Shown piece by piece: positions 11,328 through 57,422 of a stretch of 64,000 nt of DNA; positions within the stretch are counted from its first letter, which is position 1; the number at the start of each line of letters is the position of its first letter. A program made the position numbers and the translations under genes. The notes below the pieces were generated by a model that was given only the letters and a program-made list of their open reading frames with translations, was not told the DNA's origin and did no database searches. Source of the DNA: Anolis carolinensis (lineage: Eukaryota); contig NC_085846.1 in assembly GCF_035594765.1 (NCBI RefSeq), forward strand, positions 20,509,190-20,573,189, written 5' to 3'.

Positions 11328-11737
11328 ATCTTGAGAGTGTTTATACTGAAGGTTTTCTGAGACCCTGCAGATTGGGCCACTCCGAAATGATGTATCCTCC
11401 ACATGGGTCCTGCCACAACTGCTTGTCTCAATGTGCCTTTTCACATGATCTGAATAGTGCTGAATAGTCATTTTCCAGCACTCCAATTTGCAGTGTCTCA
11501 AACTCATGGCTGATGTGTTGCCTAAAGGTTTTGGGGGCCCATTCCATCACTAATGACTGTAAAACTGAACTCTTAAAATTATTAGATAAGTCTGATTATG
11601 ATCTCATAACTATTTAAAGGATGGCAACATAAAAATGGGATAAACAATGAACAATCTTTATTGTTTCAAAATAAATCTTACTCTAATTTTGCTTTTTTTC
11701 CCCTCTACAGAAGTGCAGTAAAGAACCATAGAAGGAA

Positions 11738-48452: not shown

Positions 48453-50209
48453 GAAAGTTGTGAAGAAAATAGTGGTTTATAACCTTTCTTAACATTCTAG
48501 GGGTTTCTCAATTGTTTTTGCCTTGAAAACTAATATTCCTGTCCCTTTCTTTCTGCCCTGTGGTATTTACTCTTCCGTATTTTTACTCTTTCTTTTGACC
48601 GCCTTAAAATTGTATACTTTAGCTTATAGGACTTACTCACTGAGATGATGGAAGAATTTTAGATGTTTGCTGCATTCAGGCATGTGGCTCATGATATGAA
48701 TGAAGGTAACACGTTTCCTGAATGCTTACACAGTCACTATTAAGCGTTGCTGTAGAAATGTCATTTGGGCTGCAATCTTACATTTGTTTATATGGAAGTA
48801 AGGCCCACTGAGTATAATAGGTTTTAATTTTTTATTGATGTGTAAACAATATTTGAGTTAATATGGAGATTTTTTTTTCTTGGGCACCTCACTTGGAGAA
48901 TTTTCAGGAATCACCAGTGTTTTTATTTTTCAAAAAATGTCAGAGAAGAGAGGAACTATGTATTGGTAGAAAATTGTTCCTTGAAGTAACAAAGTAAAAT
49001 TCTGGGTCTGGGATTTTATGAAGAATTAATTTTGTTTGCAGACTTTTTGATCCTGATATTCTTTAGTATATGCACATCTTTGTGATTTAGCCATGTTTGT
49101 GTAACAGATACAAGCATCGATTTTACCAGATTGAACGTTCTTCATTCTTCTTTCTGATTTTTTTTTCTGTTCCCCTTATTTTTTCATTTTTCATAACTTT
49201 TTCTTAGGTTTTATACATGTGACCACTGTGACATTTAAAGCTGTCTTAAGCCAAATGAGAGCATTGTTCTAGCAGGCGTAATAATACCTAAACTGACTGA
49301 CTAGATCTGCAATCAGATATCGTTTCCACCTTTACCTAAAAATCCAGGTAACTATTCTGAAACTTTTGTTTCAAATTCTATGATTTACTGTACTGTTGAG
49401 GTATTGTTCTTTCTTGCTTTATATATTGAAATAGTAAGTTACAATTTACGTTGTAACTCTTGATTTTCACTGCCAAATAATGATTTGATAATGACACTAG
49501 AATATTTTTCCACTGATGCTCTACAATACACCCATTGTCCATTCTATTATATGCATGTGTATGTCTTTTTTCTGAATAAGTCTGAAAGGGTATCTTATAA
49601 ACCTATGACATTAATTAGGGAAGCAAGTTGGTAGCATAAACTTCTGTAGACTTAAGTCTGCTTTATGAGTGCATTGAGTGAAGTTTCTGAGGACAAATCT
49701 TTATAGTCATTAAAGAGCATGTTAAATATGTAAAATTGCAATAAATGGTAAAACTTGTTGATATGGTGACAAATGCAGTATTGCTGCTGAAGGACAACAG
49801 CAGTAGAAACATATTGTCTAAAGCCAAGATGATACCAGCCATATGAAGTCTGTCTTCTTAATCAAGAAATATTATTTTTGAAGTCCTCAATCTGACTTCT
49901 TTTCCTTTTGGGTTCACTTTGGGTTAACCCAAATTCCCAAAACCTTGAACCTGCAAAGATCTCACAGAGAGTTAGAGCCTGGGAATGTTTTCTCCCAAAC
50001 AGTATACCCAGGCACTGTGCTTATTGCTATGCACATTGAACTATGCTTTTGGTCCTAAGTTTGAAATATTGCTTTAAATGAAGTAGAGGCAGGTTGTGTG
50101 TTGGTTATCATAACTATGAGAATAAAATGAAAAGCACTTTAAGTACTGCATTTCCATGTCTTTTATGGCTATTCTGACAACTGTTCATCTGCTTCCCTTC
50201 ACAGGCAAC

Positions 50210-51172
50210 ATGCATATTGAAGAGCAAAGGCCTATAAATAAATCCTCTCTGTCTGAGTTTATACTTCTGGAATTTTCAGAGGTTTGGGAGATCAGACTTT
50301 TGTACTTTGTGGCATTGCTTATTGTTTACCTGACAACAGCTGCAGGAAATATTCTCATCATCACTGGAATCATCTCTGACTATCGCTTGCATACCCCCAT
50401 GTACTTCTTTCTGATGAACTTGGCCATACAAGACGTGGGACAAGTTTCAGTCATTTTCCCAAAATCCATGGCCAATTCCCTCACGAACACTAGATCAATT
50501 TCTTATTGTGGATGTGTTGCTCAAGTTTTCTTTTATACATTCTTTGTAGCATCTGATTTTTCCCTTCTGACAGTCATGGCATATGATCGGTATGTTGCCA
50601 TTTGCAATCCACTGCAATATGAGATAGTGATGAATAGGCAAGCCTGCTTTCATATGGTTACTACTGTAGTGATTGTTAATTTGTTCTATGGAGTGTTGCA
50701 CACTGGAGGCACCTTTGCTCCCACCTTCTGCTCCAATGTTGTCAATCAGTTTTTCTGTGAACTCCCACACTTACTGAAACTTGTCTGTACTGACCTGTAT
50801 CTAGTTGAGGTTGGAGCTATTTTGCTCAGTGCTATGGTTCTATTTGGCTGCTTTGTTTTCATTATTGTGACTTATGTGCACATTTTCACTACAGTTATGA
50901 GAATGCCTTCTGTGCAAACAAGGCAAAAAGCTTTTTCAACTTGCCTTCCACACCTTATCGTTTGCTCTATATTTGTAGTTACTGGACTCTTGGCTTACCT
51001 GAAACCCACCTCTAATTCCCCAGCACATCCCGACCTTGCACTAGCAATGATTTATTCTATAGTTCCACCTTTGATAAATCCAGTAATTTATAGCATGAGA
51101 AATAAGGAAATAAAGTATGCTGTGAAAAAGCTACTGAATTTGAGGTTCAGAAGTCTAATTTTGCAAAGTTGA
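50210..51172 (+). CDS. Olfactory receptor (family 14-like), intact, 320 aa
   Basis: NKS sequon, LHTPMYFFL, MAYDRYVAIC, KAFSTC, PPLINPVIYSMRN; acceptor AG ends at 50204, first ATG at 50210. Confidence 0.95.
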   Translation: MHIEEQRPINKSSLSEFILLEFSEVWEIRLLYFVALLIVYLTTAAGNILIITGIISDYRLHTPMYFFLMNLAIQDVGQVSVIFPKSMANSLTNTRSISYCGCVAQVFFYTFFVASDFSLLTVMAYDRYVAICNPLQYEIVMNRQACFHMVTTVVIVNLFYGVLHTGGTFAPTFCSNVVNQFFCELPHLLKLVCTDLYLVEVGAILLSAMVLFGCFVFIIVTYVHIFTTVMRMPSVQTRQKAFSTCLPHLIVCSIFVVTGLLAYLKPTSNSPAHPDLALAMIYSIVPPLINPVIYSMRNKEIKYAVKKLLNLRFRSLILQS

Positions 51173-51614
51173 TTTCTCTCCATGACTGTACTTGTATACT
51201 ACCCTGTTTCCCCGAAAATAAGACAGGGTCTTATATTAATTTTTGCTCCCAAAGATGCACTAGGTCTTATTTTCAGGGGATGTCTTATTTTTCCATGAAG
51301 AAGAGCTCACATTTATTGTTGAACAACAAAATGAACATTTATTATATATTCTAAAGTAGTTGTCATCACAAACCAGCATAACCAGACAAACTATGAATCC
51401 TATCAAGAATTTCTTGTTACTACCATTATTTACATGTACAACAATGTCAGAACCCTGCTACTAGAGCCTGGATGTGGCTCTGAGTTTCAGGGTCACTGAC
51501 AGTGATAAGACACCTGCGTCCCAGGACTCGGAGGAGAAACGGCTGATGGACTTGGCGGGGAATTTGCGCGGGGTTTTACTGAGCGGGAAGAGACTGTTCA
51601 AATGAGGGGGAGGG

Positions 51615-51655
51615 TATATAAAGGAGGGTTGGCCGGAGCCTCCCATTCTTGGCTT
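51615..51655 (+). promoter_or_regulatory. LTR core promoter: TATA box and initiator
   Basis: TATATAAA at 51615; Inr-like CCATTCT with A at 51645, 30 nt downstream. Confidence 0.8.
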
Positions 51656-51749
51656 TTCTGATGTTCATGTTTCCTACAGTAAAAGTTCCTGGTGATACCA
51701 CAGAGAGTCTCGTGTGTTCATTCAGGAGCGGCTGTGGTGAGCTGACACT

Positions 51750-51760
51750 AAGCCAAGAAT
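51750..51760 (+). other. Self-priming primer-binding site
   Basis: AAGCCAAGAAT is the exact reverse complement of ATTCTTGGCTT (51645-51655), the predicted transcript 5' end. Confidence 0.85.
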
Positions 51761-51795
51761 ACGGACACCATCCCGCTGTAGCGGTGAGGTGTAAC

Positions 51796-54700
51796 ATGCA
51801 AGTGGAGGATGAAGAGCTCTTGGGCGCCGGAGGAGGAAGGTCGGAAAGGGCCACTCCCGAGACGGACGCTGAGTTCCACCAGCTGGCGGCCCTGGCGTCA
51901 TCCACCGCTTATGCCCAGCCAAATGGGGTAACCCAGAGGCGCGGAGTGGTGCGGGGAGATAGCACCGGAGGAGAGGAAGGTTCACCTTCCCCAGGCCCGC
52001 AAAAGATGGTGTTTCTGGAGGAGAGGATGTCGGCGATGGAGACCACCCTGGCAGTGATGTCGAGGGCGATGGAGCGCCTGGCGGTTTTGGCGGAGCCGGA
52101 GCGAGGAAGGGAACTCCGGGCTAGCTCAATGTGGGACGTGAGCATGGGAAGCAGCCAGGGCTTTGCAGACCTCCCAGCACCGAAGGGAAGGGAAATGCGA
52201 AAGGAGCCCGGTGCCCGGCCCAAGATCCAAACGAGCCTGACGCGGGTGGAGGAGAGTGACGACGAAGGGGAAAAGCCTCCGAGAATCCCGGCTACGCTCC
52301 CAACTGAGACCCTGGTGCCCCTGGCGAATGCCGGGCGTGGCACAGGACAAAGGGAAGCAGCAGCGGGGCCCACTGGCCCGCAAGGGGGCTTGCGACGGGC
52401 GGAGAATTGGGGATTGCCACCACAGGGACCCCTACCGAGACGAGAGGAACTAAGGATCGAGTTTGGGGGAGAGTCCTCTGAACTGGATTTTTTCCTGACC
52501 ACGGTGAGGGGCTATATGGAGGACAATGCCCACACTTTTAGAACGGAATCCAGCCGGGTACGGGCCATTGGTGCAGTGTTGAAGAGGGGAGCGGCCAGCT
52601 GGTACGTTCAACTACACGCGCGGCGCGACCCATGTCTGGGGTCACTCCGACGCTTTATGGGGGCCCTGGAGACCCGTTTCCGAGATCCACTGGAGCAGAT
52701 CCGGGCGAGGGAGGAGTTGAAGACCGTCTCCCAGGGGCAGAGGTCGGTATCTGAGTATGCGGAGGAGTTCCAATGCCTCGCTGAAAAGGTGCCGGAATGG
52801 TCTGCAGTGACAAAGATAGAACTCTTCAAAGAGGGGCTCAGGCGGGAGATCCTCTCCTGGGCGGTGCATCGTGATGAGCCTGACACACTGCGCGGATGGA
52901 TTCAGCTGGCGGGGCGCATCGAGACATCGCTGGCCCAGGCGAGGAGGCACCGAGGAGGGCTACAGCAGCGGCCGCAGATGAAAGAGGGGAGCCGGAAGGA
53001 GGGATCAACCCCAGCCGGGAGGAGAACGGAGCCGACAGGGAACGTGAGCACCAGCAGGAGGGGCTGCTTCGTGTGCGGCCGTTTGGGCCACAGGGCTGCC
53101 GAGTGCTGGCAGAGAAAAGGGGAAGGCGGAGGCCCGCCCAAACCAAGAGCCGTGGCAGGGAAACGCGCCGAGGAAGAACCACCGATGAGGCACCACTCGG
53201 GGGGGTTGGTAAGTCAGGACAAAGCCATGATAGTGGTCCCCATTCAGCTGGAAAGTGGCAGCAAACAAGCAACCTGCAAAGCATTTGTGGATTGTGGATG
53301 TTCCAGGAACATCATCTCCCCTGAATTAGCCGAGGGATTGGGGTGCGAAAGAACGAACCTAGAATCCCCAATAGCTTTTTCGCAGTTGGACGGATCCACA
53401 GCATCGGGATCATTAGCTAAGTACAGTGCCGAAGATGTAAAGTGTAAGATAGGGAGTTGGGAAGGAAAGGTGTCATTTGTGATATCACAAATAGCCAGCT
53501 ATAATGTTATACTAGGCATGCCATGGCTGGGGCAGGCCAACCCGCAAATCAACTGGGAGGATAAGAGCATGATCTTCAGGATGAAGTTGGAAGGAGGGAG
53601 CCAGGAAGTGGAAAGGGAGCCGGGGAAAAGGGGGGAGGAAGACTCTATCAGGATAGCAGAACTGGCAGATAAATTACCCCCAGAGTATCGGGATTTTGTG
53701 GACGTATTCGATGAGAAGGAAGCAGACAGTTTCCCACCGAAGCGGAGAGTTGAAGTGAAGATAGAGCTAGTCCCAGGAGCAGAGCTTCCTAAGGCAAAAA
53801 TATACCCAATGTCGGCTAGGGAAAAGGAGGAACTGAGAAAATACATTGATAAAAACCTAGCGAGGGGTTTCATAGAGCCTTCAAATTCCCCTCTAGGGGC
53901 GCCTGTGTTGTTCAGGCGCAAAAAGGACCAAACGCTGAGGCTCTGCATTGACTACAGGGGCCTGAATGCAATCAGTTCTGGAAATAAATACCCCCTACCT
54001 TTAGTGAAGGACTTGATCGCCCAGTTATCGGAGGGACAGATATTCACTAAATTGGACTTAATTGAAGCGTACCATAAATTGCAGATTAAACCAGAGGACA
54101 GGTGGAAGACGGCCTTCTCCTGTGCATTCGGATTATTCAATTATCGTGTGCTCCCTTTCGGTTTGTGCGGCGGAGGCGCCGCGTTCATGCAATTAATCAA
54201 CGAAGTGTTGCATCCATTGTTGTACAAGGGAGTCTTTGTTTTTTTAGATGACATATTGTTAGTATCTCGGACTAAGGAGCAACACATAGAACTAGTCAGG
54301 GAAGTCCTGCAAAAGTTGAGAGAAGCAAAACTGTATGCGAAGCTTGCCAAGTGCGAGTTCAATAAAGACCAGATAGACTTTCTGGGGTATAGGATTTCCT
54401 CCCAGGGAGTGGCGATGGACCCTGCGAAGGTAGAAGACGTGAGGGGGTGGGAAGCCCCCAAAACACGGAAGCAGCTGCAATCCTTCCTAGGGTTCGCAAA
54501 CTTCTATAGAACATTTATCAAGGACTTTGCGCGCCTCACTTTGCCATTAACGGATTTGTTAAAGACTAAAGGTAGGGGAGAAACAGCCAAAGTGAAGGCC
54601 CCAGGGGCCAAACTGACCTGGACAATAGAATGCCAGGAAGCTTTCGAAGCCCTAAAAAAGCGTTTTACTGAGGAGCCTGTCCTACAGCACCCTGATATGT

Positions 54701-56412
54701 CTAAAGCCTTTGTATTACATTGCGATGCGTCAGACCGGGCATATGGGGCAGTTCTGCTACAGAAAGACGAGGGGGGGAACCTGAAGCCATGTGGCTATCT
54801 GTCAAAAAAGTTTAGCGATACAGAAAAAAACTGGCCGATTTGGGAGAGAGAAGCCTTAGCGATTCTAAAAGCACTAGAGTGCTGGAGACACTTTCTGGAA
54901 GGAAGTGGAACACCGTTTGAGGTGTGGACTGACCATAGAAATTTACAGTATCTAAGATCCCCTCGTAAACTATCAGCGAAGCAAATTAGATGGGCCCAAT
55001 ATTTCAGCCGTTTTGATTTCAGACTCAGATTCTTCCAGGGGAAACATAATATACTCGCTGACGCTCTCTCTCGGATGCCTCAGCACGGGGGAGGAATTCA
55101 GGAATCTGAAGGGAGTATTTTTCTTGATAAGCAATGGGGCCTGGCAGTACTAACTCGAACACAAGCGGCCAAAGAAAACAAACGTACTGCCATTTCCACG
55201 GGGGGAGGAGAAATATGGGAGGAAGAGTTGAAGCGAGCGTATGGAATGGACAAATGGTTACAAACAAACAAAGAAAAGGGAGAATTGTGTGGGGATTTGG
55301 TGTTTGTAAATAAGAAATTGTATATTCCTGAATGTTTAAGACGAGAAATGTTAAGGAAGTACCATGATAACAAGGGTGCGGGTCATCTAGGCCCCACCAG
55401 GACTATTAAACTGTTGGCCAAACAATGCTGGTGGCCCGGAATGAGGAAAGACGCCAGGGGATACGTCACGCAGTGTGAATTATGTGCAGAGGGAAAAACA
55501 CCACCGGGGAAGCCCCAGGGGCTATTGCAGAAGGTGGTGGAGGCCATGAGGCCATGGGAATGCGTAGCCATGGATTTTGTAGGCGAACTACCCCCCAGCA
55601 GAGGCCACAGATACATTTGGACAATATTGGACCTATTCTCAAAACAGGCACACTTTGTGGCTCTGCCAAAACTTCCTTCAGCTGAAAAACTTGCTGATTT
55701 GTATGTGAAGCATGTATATCGCCTACATGGGTGTCCCGACAAGATAATTAGTGACCGGGGAGTCCAATTTACTGCAAAATTTTGGGGAAAATTCTTACAG
55801 CTGTTAGGAGCAGAAAGGAACCTGAGCTCGGCCTTTCATCCCGCGACCAACGGGGGGGTCGAACGTACCCAACAGACACTGTGCCAATTCTTAAGGATGT
55901 ACACCAATTATAGACAGGATGATTGGGCGGACCTTCTTCCGTTTGCTGAGATGGCTTTTAACGGGGCCGTACATTCGGCCACAGGTCGTGCCCCATTCGA
56001 AATAGTATACGGACAGGAGGTGGCACCTTTCCCCAGGCTACCCGAGTGGAAGGAAGGGGAGGGCCAGACCGACGAGGAATGGCCGGCCAAAATCAAGCAA
56101 GGGTGGCAAACCGTGGTAGAGGCATTGCGGGAAACACAAAAGAAGTACAAGCTCTTTGCGGATCGTAGGCGCCGAGAGGGGGACAAATTGGGCGAAGGAG
56201 ATCTGGTTTGGCTGAGCACAAAAAACCTGAAATTGGGGTTCCCATCCAAGAAATTGGCTCCACGCTATATAGGGCCATTCAGGGTAGCAAAAAGAATAAA
56301 CGAAGTGACCTATGAGCTGAGGCTACCAAAGGACCTAGGAAAGGTACACCCGGTATTCCATTGCAGCCTGTTAAAAAAGTATAAAGGAACTCTGGACAGC
56401 GGAGAACAATAG
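51796..56412 (+). CDS. Gag-Pol polyprotein (capsid, CCHC, protease, RT, RNase H, integrase; no chromodomain, no env)
   Basis: FGGESSELDFFL capsid-like start, CFVCGRLGHRAAEC, FVDCG, FLDD, CDAS/ERE/TDH/ADALSR, HHCC + MDF/SDRG/VER, GPF; start uncertain (in-frame ATGs also at 51661 and 51667). Confidence 0.95.
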   Translation: MQVEDEELLGAGGGRSERATPETDAEFHQLAALASSTAYAQPNGVTQRRGVVRGDSTGGEEGSPSPGPQKMVFLEERMSAMETTLAVMSRAMERLAVLAEPERGRELRASSMWDVSMGSSQGFADLPAPKGREMRKEPGARPKIQTSLTRVEESDDEGEKPPRIPATLPTETLVPLANAGRGTGQREAAAGPTGPQGGLRRAENWGLPPQGPLPRREELRIEFGGESSELDFFLTTVRGYMEDNAHTFRTESSRVRAIGAVLKRGAASWYVQLHARRDPCLGSLRRFMGALETRFRDPLEQIRAREELKTVSQGQRSVSEYAEEFQCLAEKVPEWSAVTKIELFKEGLRREILSWAVHRDEPDTLRGWIQLAGRIETSLAQARRHRGGLQQRPQMKEGSRKEGSTPAGRRTEPTGNVSTSRRGCFVCGRLGHRAAECWQRKGEGGGPPKPRAVAGKRAEEEPPMRHHSGGLVSQDKAMIVVPIQLESGSKQATCKAFVDCGCSRNIISPELAEGLGCERTNLESPIAFSQLDGSTASGSLAKYSAEDVKCKIGSWEGKVSFVISQIASYNVILGMPWLGQANPQINWEDKSMIFRMKLEGGSQEVEREPGKRGEEDSIRIAELADKLPPEYRDFVDVFDEKEADSFPPKRRVEVKIELVPGAELPKAKIYPMSAREKEELRKYIDKNLARGFIEPSNSPLGAPVLFRRKKDQTLRLCIDYRGLNAISSGNKYPLPLVKDLIAQLSEGQIFTKLDLIEAYHKLQIKPEDRWKTAFSCAFGLFNYRVLPFGLCGGGAAFMQLINEVLHPLLYKGVFVFLDDILLVSRTKEQHIELVREVLQKLREAKLYAKLAKCEFNKDQIDFLGYRISSQGVAMDPAKVEDVRGWEAPKTRKQLQSFLGFANFYRTFIKDFARLTLPLTDLLKTKGRGETAKVKAPGAKLTWTIECQEAFEALKKRFTEEPVLQHPDMSKAFVLHCDASDRAYGAVLLQKDEGGNLKPCGYLSKKFSDTEKNWPIWEREALAILKALECWRHFLEGSGTPFEVWTDHRNLQYLRSPRKLSAKQIRWAQYFSRFDFRLRFFQGKHNILADALSRMPQHGGGIQESEGSIFLDKQWGLAVLTRTQAAKENKRTAISTGGGEIWEEELKRAYGMDKWLQTNKEKGELCGDLVFVNKKLYIPECLRREMLRKYHDNKGAGHLGPTRTIKLLAKQCWWPGMRKDARGYVTQCELCAEGKTPPGKPQGLLQKVVEAMRPWECVAMDFVGELPPSRGHRYIWTILDLFSKQAHFVALPKLPSAEKLADLYVKHVYRLHGCPDKIISDRGVQFTAKFWGKFLQLLGAERNLSSAFHPATNGGVERTQQTLCQFLRMYTNYRQDDWADLLPFAEMAFNGAVHSATGRAPFEIVYGQEVAPFPRLPEWKEGEGQTDEEWPAKIKQGWQTVVEALRETQKKYKLFADRRRREGDKLGEGDLVWLSTKNLKLGFPSKKLAPRYIGPFRVAKRINEVTYELRLPKDLGKVHPVFHCSLLKKYKGTLDSGEQ

Positions 56413-56852
56413 TTGTGTTTAATCTTTTCCTTCCAGGACGAAGGGGAGGAGGACGCCATGTCAGAACCCTGCTACTAGAGCCTGGATGTGGCTCTGAGTT
56501 TCAGGGTCACTGACAGTGATAAGACACCTGCGTCCCAGGACTCGGAGGAGAAACGGCTGATGGACTTGGCGGGGAATTTGCGCGGGGTTTTACTGAGCGG
56601 GAAGAGACTGTTCAAATGAGGGGGAGGGTATATAAAGGAGGGTTGGCCGGAGCCTCCCATTCTTGGCTTTTCTGATGTTCATGTTTCCTACAGTAAAAGT
56701 TCCTGGTGATACCACAGAGAGTCTCGTGTGTTCATTCAGGAGCGGCTGTGGTGAGCTGACACAACAATCTATGGTACCTCTTGCAATTTAGGTTTCACAA
56801 GGTTTCCACACTGATTTCTCTCTATTCTAGTTTCAATGTAGTCATGAATGAT

Positions 56853-57422
56853 GAATAATATAATATACTATAATAATAATATGATAATATAATAATATAA
56901 TGATATACAATATATTAATGAGATAATATAATATAGGATATAATAATAACAGAAAATGATAATAATATGGTATTAATAGGATAATATAATAATGGGATAT
57001 AATAACAGAATAGCATAATAATATAATAATAATAGGATAATATAATAGAATAATAGAATGGAATAGAATGATATAAAATATATTAATAGGATAATATAAA
57101 ATGGAATATAATAATAACAGAATATGCTAATAATGATAATAATATGATAATATAATAGAATAATAGTATAAAATATAATGATATAAAATATATTAATAGG
57201 ATAATATAAAATGGAATAAAATAATAACAGAATAATAATATAATAATATGAAAATATAATAGAATAATAATAGAATAATAATATAATGATATAATAATAA
57301 TAGAAAAATATAATATAATGATATAAAATATATTAATAGGATAATATAATAATGGGATATAATAATAGTAACAGAATATGATGATAATAATATGGTAATA
57401 GAATAATAGTATAAAATAATAA
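56853..57422. repeat. AT-rich degenerate minisatellite (ATAAT/ATATAAT units) inside the MITE
   Basis: Directly visible; higher-order unit TATTAATAGGATAATATAA recurs four times. Confidence 0.9.

What the first reader, a model, noticed from the sequence alone, without database searches (positions are those of the whole stretch)
51615..51760. tRNA-independent self-priming reverse transcription signature
Seen: there is no TGG-type tRNA PBS after the 5' LTR. Instead 51750-51760 (AAGCCAAGAAT) pairs perfectly over 11 nt with 51645-51655 (ATTCTTGGCTT), which begins exactly 30 nt after the TATA box at an Inr-like site. Established: S. pombe Tf1 primes with the first 11 nt of its own transcript, released by RNase H, and this has been proposed for the Tf1/sushi group. 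Inference: the transcription start is 51645 and the element self-primes.
Basis: partly seen in the sequence, partly recalled or inferred. Interest (0 to 1): 0.7.

Follow-up and report, generated by a model that had tools for sequence, protein, structure and literature searches.

The report
Lizard retrotransposon bears self-priming scars
A young jumping gene with hundreds of copies in a lizard genome has no tRNA landing site and likely starts copying itself with the first 11 letters of its own RNA, a mechanism known from fission yeast, and copying errors that pile up exactly where that predicted primer ends give rare genomic support for it in a vertebrate.

Summary
Confirmed. 51645-51655 and 51750-51760 form exactly 11 Watson-Crick pairs, two bases after the 5' LTR of an intact Ty3/gypsy element with at least 743 junction copies; the host is Anolis carolinensis by UniRef names. 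Five other gypsy families in this genome show the same layout with different letters (10-12 pairs, usually a 2-nt spacer, TATA-like box 30-32 nt upstream): 11 distinct primer/PBS pairs, all perfect. No sampled tRNA fits. Two further traces support self-priming. First, 55 of 743 copies differ at the first base behind the PBS, against 4 of about 731 at a control base. Second, six copies break exactly there, and two clearly (two more weakly) continue with the reverse complement of their own U3, which a tRNA primer cannot supply. No RNA start site was measured. The mechanism is known (Tf1) and already proposed for vertebrate Tf1/sushi elements, so this is a new member of a known kind; I found no paper on these traces in lizards, though key papers were not held. 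The scan noted self-priming signatures before in other genomes (copia, BEL/Pao), not on this DNA.

The parts
51439..51444 (+). Left target-site duplication CAACAA (6 bp)
   Evidence: Sequence; repeated at 56762-56767; 6 bp is the usual length in this family
51445..51747 (+). 5' LTR, 303 bp, TG...CA
   Evidence: Identical to the 3' LTR; left boundary from 30 loci
51615..51621 (+). TATA box TATATAA, starting at -30
   Evidence: Sequence; TATA-like motif at -30 to -32 in five other families; function inferred
51645..51655 (+). Predicted first 11 nt of the transcript = predicted self-primer; 51645 is the predicted start
   Evidence: Perfect complement of the PBS; unchanged in 64 of 64 loci; pyrimidine/purine at -1/+1 in all six families
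51678..51683 (+). AGTAAA, likely poly(A) signal variant (acts in the 3' LTR copy)
   Evidence: the sister family has AATAAA at the aligned place; cleavage site not measured
51748..51749 (+). 2-nt spacer CT between LTR end and PBS
   Evidence: a 2-nt spacer in all six families
51750..51760 (+). Primer-binding site complementary to the element's own R start
   Evidence: exact in 743 genomic junctions (the pattern required it, so this is not a conservation rate)
51761..51761 (+). Mutation hot spot and break point immediately 3' of the PBS
   Evidence: 55 of 743 copies vary here; control 4; six copies break here
51765..51792 (+). Predicted leader hairpin behind the PBS
   Evidence: MFE and centroid fold; not tested by covariation
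51796..56412 (+). Single gag-pol ORF, 1538 aa from the likely ATG (open from 51622): capsid, CCHC, protease, RT, RNase H, integrase, SH3; no chromodomain
56440..56453 (+). Polypurine tract
   Evidence: Sequence; function inferred
56459..56761 (+). 3' LTR, with a second copy of the 11-mer at 56659-56669
56762..56767 (+). Right target-site duplication CAACAA

Best explanation
This Ty3/gypsy retrotransposon has a primer site that pairs with its own repeat instead of a tRNA, and it likely primes reverse transcription as Tf1 does, with the first 11 nt of a transcript predicted to start at 51645. Shown: the duplex, its conservation by paired changes, and the copying errors at 51761. Inferred from Tf1: the RNA 5' end folds onto the PBS, RNase H cuts after nt 11, and the 11-mer primes minus-strand DNA through the CT spacer, U5 and the rest of R. 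Inferred from the copies: plus-strand strong-stop DNA copies the primer and stops at its 5' end (opposite 51645), where RT often adds extra bases; these become the changes at 51761 after the second strand transfer. Because the PBS is re-copied from the primer, changes in the R start would carry over to the PBS, which explains the paired changes between subfamilies.
For: Duplex exact and beyond chance. Same geometry with different letters in five more families: perfect in F2 20 of 23, F3 11 of 12, F4 24 of 25, F5 10 of 12 (10 bp), F6 27 of 30 (12 bp) junctions; 11 distinct perfect primer/PBS pairs, and all 11 positions vary among them. Hot spot: 55 of 743 at 51761 (32 indels) against 4 of about 731 (0 indels) at 51780, Fisher p 7.5e-13; background 0.33% substitutions and 0.07% indels per site; variants lie on several subfamily backgrounds, in 35 of 35 distinct flanks. 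Six of eight hits leave the element's sequence exactly behind the PBS; L329 (12 nt) and L330 (9 nt) continue with the reverse complement of their own subfamily's U3 end, L331 (7) and L332 (5) more weakly; five of the six have 6-bp target duplications. RNase H and RT acidic motifs are present. Tf1 mechanism and non-templated additions: passages of PMC7175516 and PMC11042837.
Against: No start site, cleavage or primer was observed. Most added bases at 51761 are T (39 of 55), which neither cap copying (C) nor U3 copying (G) predicts; the origin of the T is unexplained. No hot spot appears at the predicted minus-strand transfer point (0 of 64 loci vary at 51641-51657). The flanking helices of the Tf1 'pretzel' did not beat shuffles. 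Some copies are uncompensated (L051, L056, L057, L097, L129, L216, L240, L243). The 55 variants are not all independent events; some share a lineage. One control base only.
Confidence: 0.9

Rival explanations
1. Self-priming, but the primer is not always the capped 5' end of the same RNA: it is cut from a transcript that starts further upstream, from the R copy at the RNA's 3' end, or from the second packaged RNA.
For: L329 and L330 carry 12 and 9 nt copied from upstream of 51645, as a longer primer would give; two A>G changes at 51761 fit a 1-nt longer primer.
Against: Such copies are rare (4 to 8 among about 750) and can also arise when the plus strand, ending at the PBS, folds back on the 11-mer in its own strand. 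TATA spacing and a pyrimidine/purine step sit at the first paired base in all six families. Acting in cis or in trans cannot be told from DNA.
Confidence: 0.06
2. A host tRNA or tRNA fragment primes; the duplex only shields or presents the site.
For: The 5' piece of tRNA-Thr(AGT) pairs over 8 nt with the LTR-proximal bases; the tRNA sample lacks Glu, Tyr and Val.
Against: No TGG, so no CCA end can pair (best 1 nt); one 8-nt hit is near chance for this many trials (my estimate about 0.2); the PBS changes with the LTR 11-mer, even within family F2, which a fixed tRNA would not allow; copied tails match U3, not tRNA.
Confidence: 0.02
3. The inverted repeat is a DNA-level quasi-palindrome, and the hot spot and inverted tails arise from host replication slips after insertion.
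For: Template switching at inverted repeats can extend them (general knowledge); the inner side of the repeat was not searched genome-wide.
Against: The changes fall only on the PBS side: 0 of 64 loci vary at 51641-51657 or 51744-51758. Copies otherwise identical over 850 bp differ there (L166/L136, L176/L144, L181/L145). It does not explain why six families keep the pairing, nor what primes instead.
Confidence: 0.02

Closest known systems
Tf1/Tf2 of Schizosaccharomyces pombe (self-priming shown by experiment; passages of PMC7175516, PMC4600332, PMC11042837)
   Same: 11-nt perfect duplex between the predicted RNA start and the PBS; no tRNA site; single gag-pol ORF; RT adds non-templated bases to cDNA 3' ends in Tf1, matching the hot spot here
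   Different: Here a 2-nt spacer separates LTR and PBS (in Tf1 the PBS seems to abut the LTR, inferred); Gag has a CCHC finger; no chromodomain; mostly 6-bp target duplications; flanking 'pretzel' helices not demonstrated
[quoted passage not shown] 2001 (not held; cited through PMC6317226 and bioRxiv 10.1101/2022.12.06.519325)
   Same: Vertebrate host; Pol nests among chromodomain-bearing lizard, snake, fish and amphibian elements; 5' end TGTCAGA fits the Sushi motif TGTYANR of PMC3601003
   Different: No chromodomain; single ORF rather than the -1 frameshift said to predominate outside fission yeasts; 3' end GCTGACA misses CNTNACA by one base; no named reference sequence was in my tree
Amn-ichi of Anolis carolinensis (Piskurek et al., not held; title seen in the reference list of PMC2774666)
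   Same: Same host species and group
   Different: Amn-ichi is described as chromodomain-containing; this family is not, so it is probably a different family. F2 or F5, which have chromodomains, may be Amn-ichi (not tested)

Membership tests
Ty3/gypsy LTR retrotransposon | LTRs TG...CA, gag, then PR-RT-RH-IN order, PPT, target duplication | tested here: met
   best PDB match Ty3 Gag-Pol, E 1.6e-131
Tf1/sushi group | PBS complementary to a segment of the element's own LTR, not to a tRNA | tested here: met
Tf1/sushi group | The complementary segment is the 5' end of the transcript | tested here: inconclusive
   Indirect only: TATA spacing, initiator step, hot spot; no raw RNA reads
Tf1/sushi group | RNase H cleavage releases the primer | not testable with these tools
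   RNase H domain and acidic motifs present
Tf1/sushi group | Three-duplex 'pretzel' leader structure | tested here: inconclusive
   Central duplex mean pair probability 0.95; flanking helices matched by 11% and 18% of shuffles; the original structure papers were not held
Tf1/sushi group | Pol falls in the fungi/vertebrate chromovirus clade | tested here: inconclusive
   Quick tree, 32 rows: SH-aLRT 100 for a squamate clade with chromodomain-bearing members, inside a vertebrate plus fungal group apart from plant and algal rows; midpoint root, no named Tf1 or sushi-ichi row
Chromovirus (structural definition) | Chromodomain at the integrase C-terminus | tested here: not met
   None; ORF ends soon after the SH3 domain. 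Close relatives carry one, so it was probably lost; chromoviruses 'usually' have it
Amn-ichi | Chromodomain-containing element of Anolis | tested here: not met
   No chromodomain; the Amn-ichi sequence itself was not available
tRNA-primed LTR elements | PBS begins TGG and pairs with a tRNA 3' end | tested here: not met
   Best contiguous pairing 1 nt at offsets 0-8, 52 distinct tRNAs, 28 anticodons, 17 amino acids

The most novel reading that the evidence does not exclude
The lizard genome records self-primed reverse transcription in action: the hot spot behind the PBS and the inverted U3 tails are fossil plus-strand ends that map primer length and transcription start to the base, giving the first in vivo evidence for tRNA-free priming in a vertebrate and a general way to read primers from genomes. 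The C that follows the PBS in five of six families would be the copied cap. A single-ORF, chromodomain-less lineage with 6-bp target duplications would be a distinct squamate branch of the group.
Probability: 0.45. Interest if true: 0.6.

Novelty: new member of a known kind. Interest (0 to 1): 0.42.

Why it matters
Self-priming has been shown by experiment in fission yeast and, in the passages I read, only proposed or implicated for vertebrate elements. Here at least six recently expanded lizard families use the layout, and their genomic copies keep errors that mark where the primer ends. This turns a pattern match into a prediction that can be checked at single-base resolution with lizard RNA, and offers a sequence-only test for other elements whose primer is unknown. 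It does not reveal a new mechanism.

Tried and rejected
RNA evidence for the start: no RNA holder listed on record, and all runs were contigs, which cannot show starts. tRNA 3' end or fragment as primer: rejected. 'Pretzel' flanking helices: not above shuffles in F1, F1b, F2, F3, F4, F6; only the downstream helix of F5 reached 1.5% (one of 14 tests), and in F5 the central duplex was not in the predicted fold. Hot spot at the U3/R border or at primer base 11: none in 64 loci. A 4- or 5-bp target duplication with longer LTRs for this copy: rejected by the LTR boundary in other copies. The F1/F6 DNA alignment was cut short at the 3' end and was used only for the R start. The careful tree did not finish; the quick tree is reported. 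L329's 3' end was not in the stretch fetched. Seven papers were not held. No earlier scan note matched this DNA.

Full report
Observation. 51645-51655 (ATTCTTGGCTT) and 51750-51760 (AAGCCAAGAAT) form 11 Watson-Crick pairs with a mismatch on either side; TATATAA starts at 51615. The LTR runs 51445-51747 and is identical to 56459-56761; 30 of 30 loci from a genome search share sequence only from TGTCAG on. Two bases (CT) separate the LTR from the site. None of 652 random internal positions reaches 11 nt of complementarity to the LTR under the same test, and the leader folds with z = -4.21.

The element. One ORF encodes capsid, protease, RT, RNase H, integrase and an SH3 domain, with no chromodomain. 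A junction pattern has 743 exact matches in the genome, many copies being identical over 406 bp, so the family is young. UniRef proteins 99-100% identical over 60% of the query are labelled Anolis carolinensis. In a quick tree of 32 Pol sequences the family (F1) and its sister (F6, 72.5% identical) nest with SH-aLRT 100 among lizard and snake elements, some with chromodomains, within a vertebrate plus fungal group apart from plant and algal rows; no named reference was included and the root is a midpoint.

Covariation. I fetched copies of five other gypsy families found by Pfam and protein searches. Each has, two bases after its LTR, a site complementary to its own LTR: F2 ATTCAGTACAA, F3 GCGTTGGGCAA, F4 GCGTGTGGCAA, F5 GCGGAGTCAA (10 bp), F6 ATTCTCGACTTT (12 bp). 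Perfect pairing: F2 20 of 23, F3 11 of 12, F4 24 of 25, F5 10 of 12, F6 27 of 30. The script dropped junctions scoring under 9 of 11 (for example L055, whose PBS is deleted), and I set aside seven rows that were chance matches or lacked the R copy (L091, L158, L282, L230, L244, L012, L096). Within F2 five different 11-mers each have a matching PBS (L032, L045, L041, L119, L125), and F5 has two (L237, L241). In all, 11 distinct perfect pairs vary at every position. Although the distance to the PBS ranges from about 86 to 726 nt, the paired segment always begins on a purine after a pyrimidine, 30-32 nt behind a TATA-like motif. One F2 copy has a 1-nt spacer (L035). Uncompensated copies exist (L051, L056, L057, L097, L129, L216, L240, L243, L298, L299, L314); in L089, L129, L299 and L314 the change is at the PBS 3' end.

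tRNA. ARAGORN on 50 fetched loci gave 52 distinct tRNAs (28 anticodons, 17 amino acids; Glu, Tyr and Val missing). The best pairing of a CCA end is 1 nt; the best internal piece is 8 nt of tRNA-Thr(AGT). The set is incomplete, but the lack of TGG excludes any CCA end.

Trace 1, a hot spot. If plus-strand DNA copies an 11-nt primer and stops at its 5' end, errors should collect at 51761. Of 743 junctions, 55 differ there: 18 T insertions, 18 A>T, 9 deletions, 3 A>C, 2 A>G, 3 ATCG and 2 AACG. A matched search at the A of 51780 found 4 substitutions and no indel; the denominator, about 731, is estimated from 63 of 64 loci with intact anchors (Fisher p 7.5e-13). Nearest-neighbour comparison of 63 copies (one of 64 dropped as too divergent) gives backgrounds of 0.33% (non-CpG substitutions) and 0.07% (indels) per site. 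The 35 variant copies for which I had loci have 35 different flanks and lie on several subfamily backgrounds, some identical to non-variant copies elsewhere, so the changes recur, though some share a lineage. Tf1 RT adds non-templated bases to most cDNA 3' ends and copies the primer into single-stranded PBS DNA (PMC11042837, passages). Why T dominates is unexplained. In F2-F6 the base after the PBS is nearly always C, and in F2-F5 the next bases vary; cap copying is a possible cause and is untested. No hot spot appears at the U3/R border or at primer base 11 (0 of 64).

Trace 2, broken junctions. An earlier scan note on another genome (e1-7882470) suggested looking for dead-end products. A pattern excluding normal and 1-nt-shifted junctions gave 8 hits: two point mutants and six copies that leave the normal sequence exactly at 51761. 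L329 continues with 12 nt and L330 with 9 nt that are the reverse complement of their own subfamily's U3 end; L331 (7 nt) and L332 (5 nt) agree but overlap with microhomology; L327 and L328 (1-2 nt) carry no information. Each then jumps elsewhere in the element. Five of the six have normal ends and 6-bp target duplications; L329's 3' end was not found. The simplest reading is that they formed during reverse transcription, from a primer longer at its 5' end or from a plus strand that ended at the PBS and folded back. Both need an LTR-derived primer or a stop at that base; a tRNA gives neither. The pattern required an intact PBS and sees about three in four such copies.

Mechanism. Shown: duplex, paired changes, hot spot, inverted tails. 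Inferred: start at 51645, RNase H cut after nt 11 (Tf1, PMC7175516, passages), minus-strand priming, removal of the CT pair by integrase (general retroviral knowledge). The Tf1 'pretzel' described in bioRxiv 10.1101/2022.12.06.519325 (passages) was not demonstrated. Raw RNA reads were not available.

What is known. Self-primers are described for the Tf1/sushi group of yeast and vertebrates (PMC6317226, passages), 'implicated' from fungi to vertebrates (PMC4600332, passages). The V-clade includes Amn-ichi from this lizard (PMC2774666, passages). LTR end motifs are from PMC3601003 (passages). Butler 2001, Piskurek, Lin and Levin 1997 and 1998, Atwood-Moore 2005 and 2006, and Esnault and Levin 2015 were not held, so I saw nothing of them, and they may describe this layout in Anolis or similar errors. 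Nine searches (listings only, apart from the papers named) showed no title or abstract on self-priming in lizards or on such a hot spot in genomic copies. No supplements were read; those of PMC6317226 list PBS types and could bear on the families. Repeat libraries such as Repbase (recalled) were not checked and probably hold this family.

Verdict. Real, correctly interpreted and well supported; a new member of a known kind. The added value lies in the copying traces. Interest 0.42.

Noticed in passing
window 51439-51444 / 56762-56767; loci: F1 makes mostly 6-bp target duplications with a minority of 5 bp: 10 six, 3 five, 1 four, 3 none of 17 resolved rows (L089 mis-bounded), 7 six, 2 five, 2 ambiguous, 3 none, 1 not found of 15. 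F2 and F3 show 5 bp where one was found (8 of 12 rows).
   Followed up: partly
window 54241-54252: RT motif is FLDD instead of YLDD in F1 and its sister F6; 89 of 120 homologues have YLDDIL, 11 FLDDIL. It might bear on terminal additions; untested.
   Followed up: partly
L063, L076, L227, L240, L296: At least six recently expanded gypsy families coexist. Chromodomain present in F2 and F5, absent in F1, F3 and F4 and not listed for F6; single ORF in F1, F3, F6, two ORFs in F2, F4, F5. Both traits seem to have changed more than once.
   Followed up: partly
window 51661-51669: Two ATGs inside R are in frame with gag in this subfamily but out of frame in subfamilies lacking 51681; probably not the real start.
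   Followed up: no
L032:F2 LTR: In F2 the AATAAA signal overlaps the primer's last bases, leaving a short R after primer removal.
   Followed up: no
window 50126-51172 and repeats at 11732, 21992, 41351: The element lies 270 bp behind an olfactory receptor ORF (Pfam 7tm_4), one of four similar ORFs in the window.
   Followed up: no
L071; G000:C4:80497826-80524977; G000:C1:147249802-147254848: Matches spaced about 5 kb apart suggest tandem arrays that share an LTR, as Tf1 forms without integrase (PMC11042837); not examined.
   Followed up: no
window 56830-57420: AT-rich degenerate tandem repeat just behind the 3' LTR.
   Followed up: no
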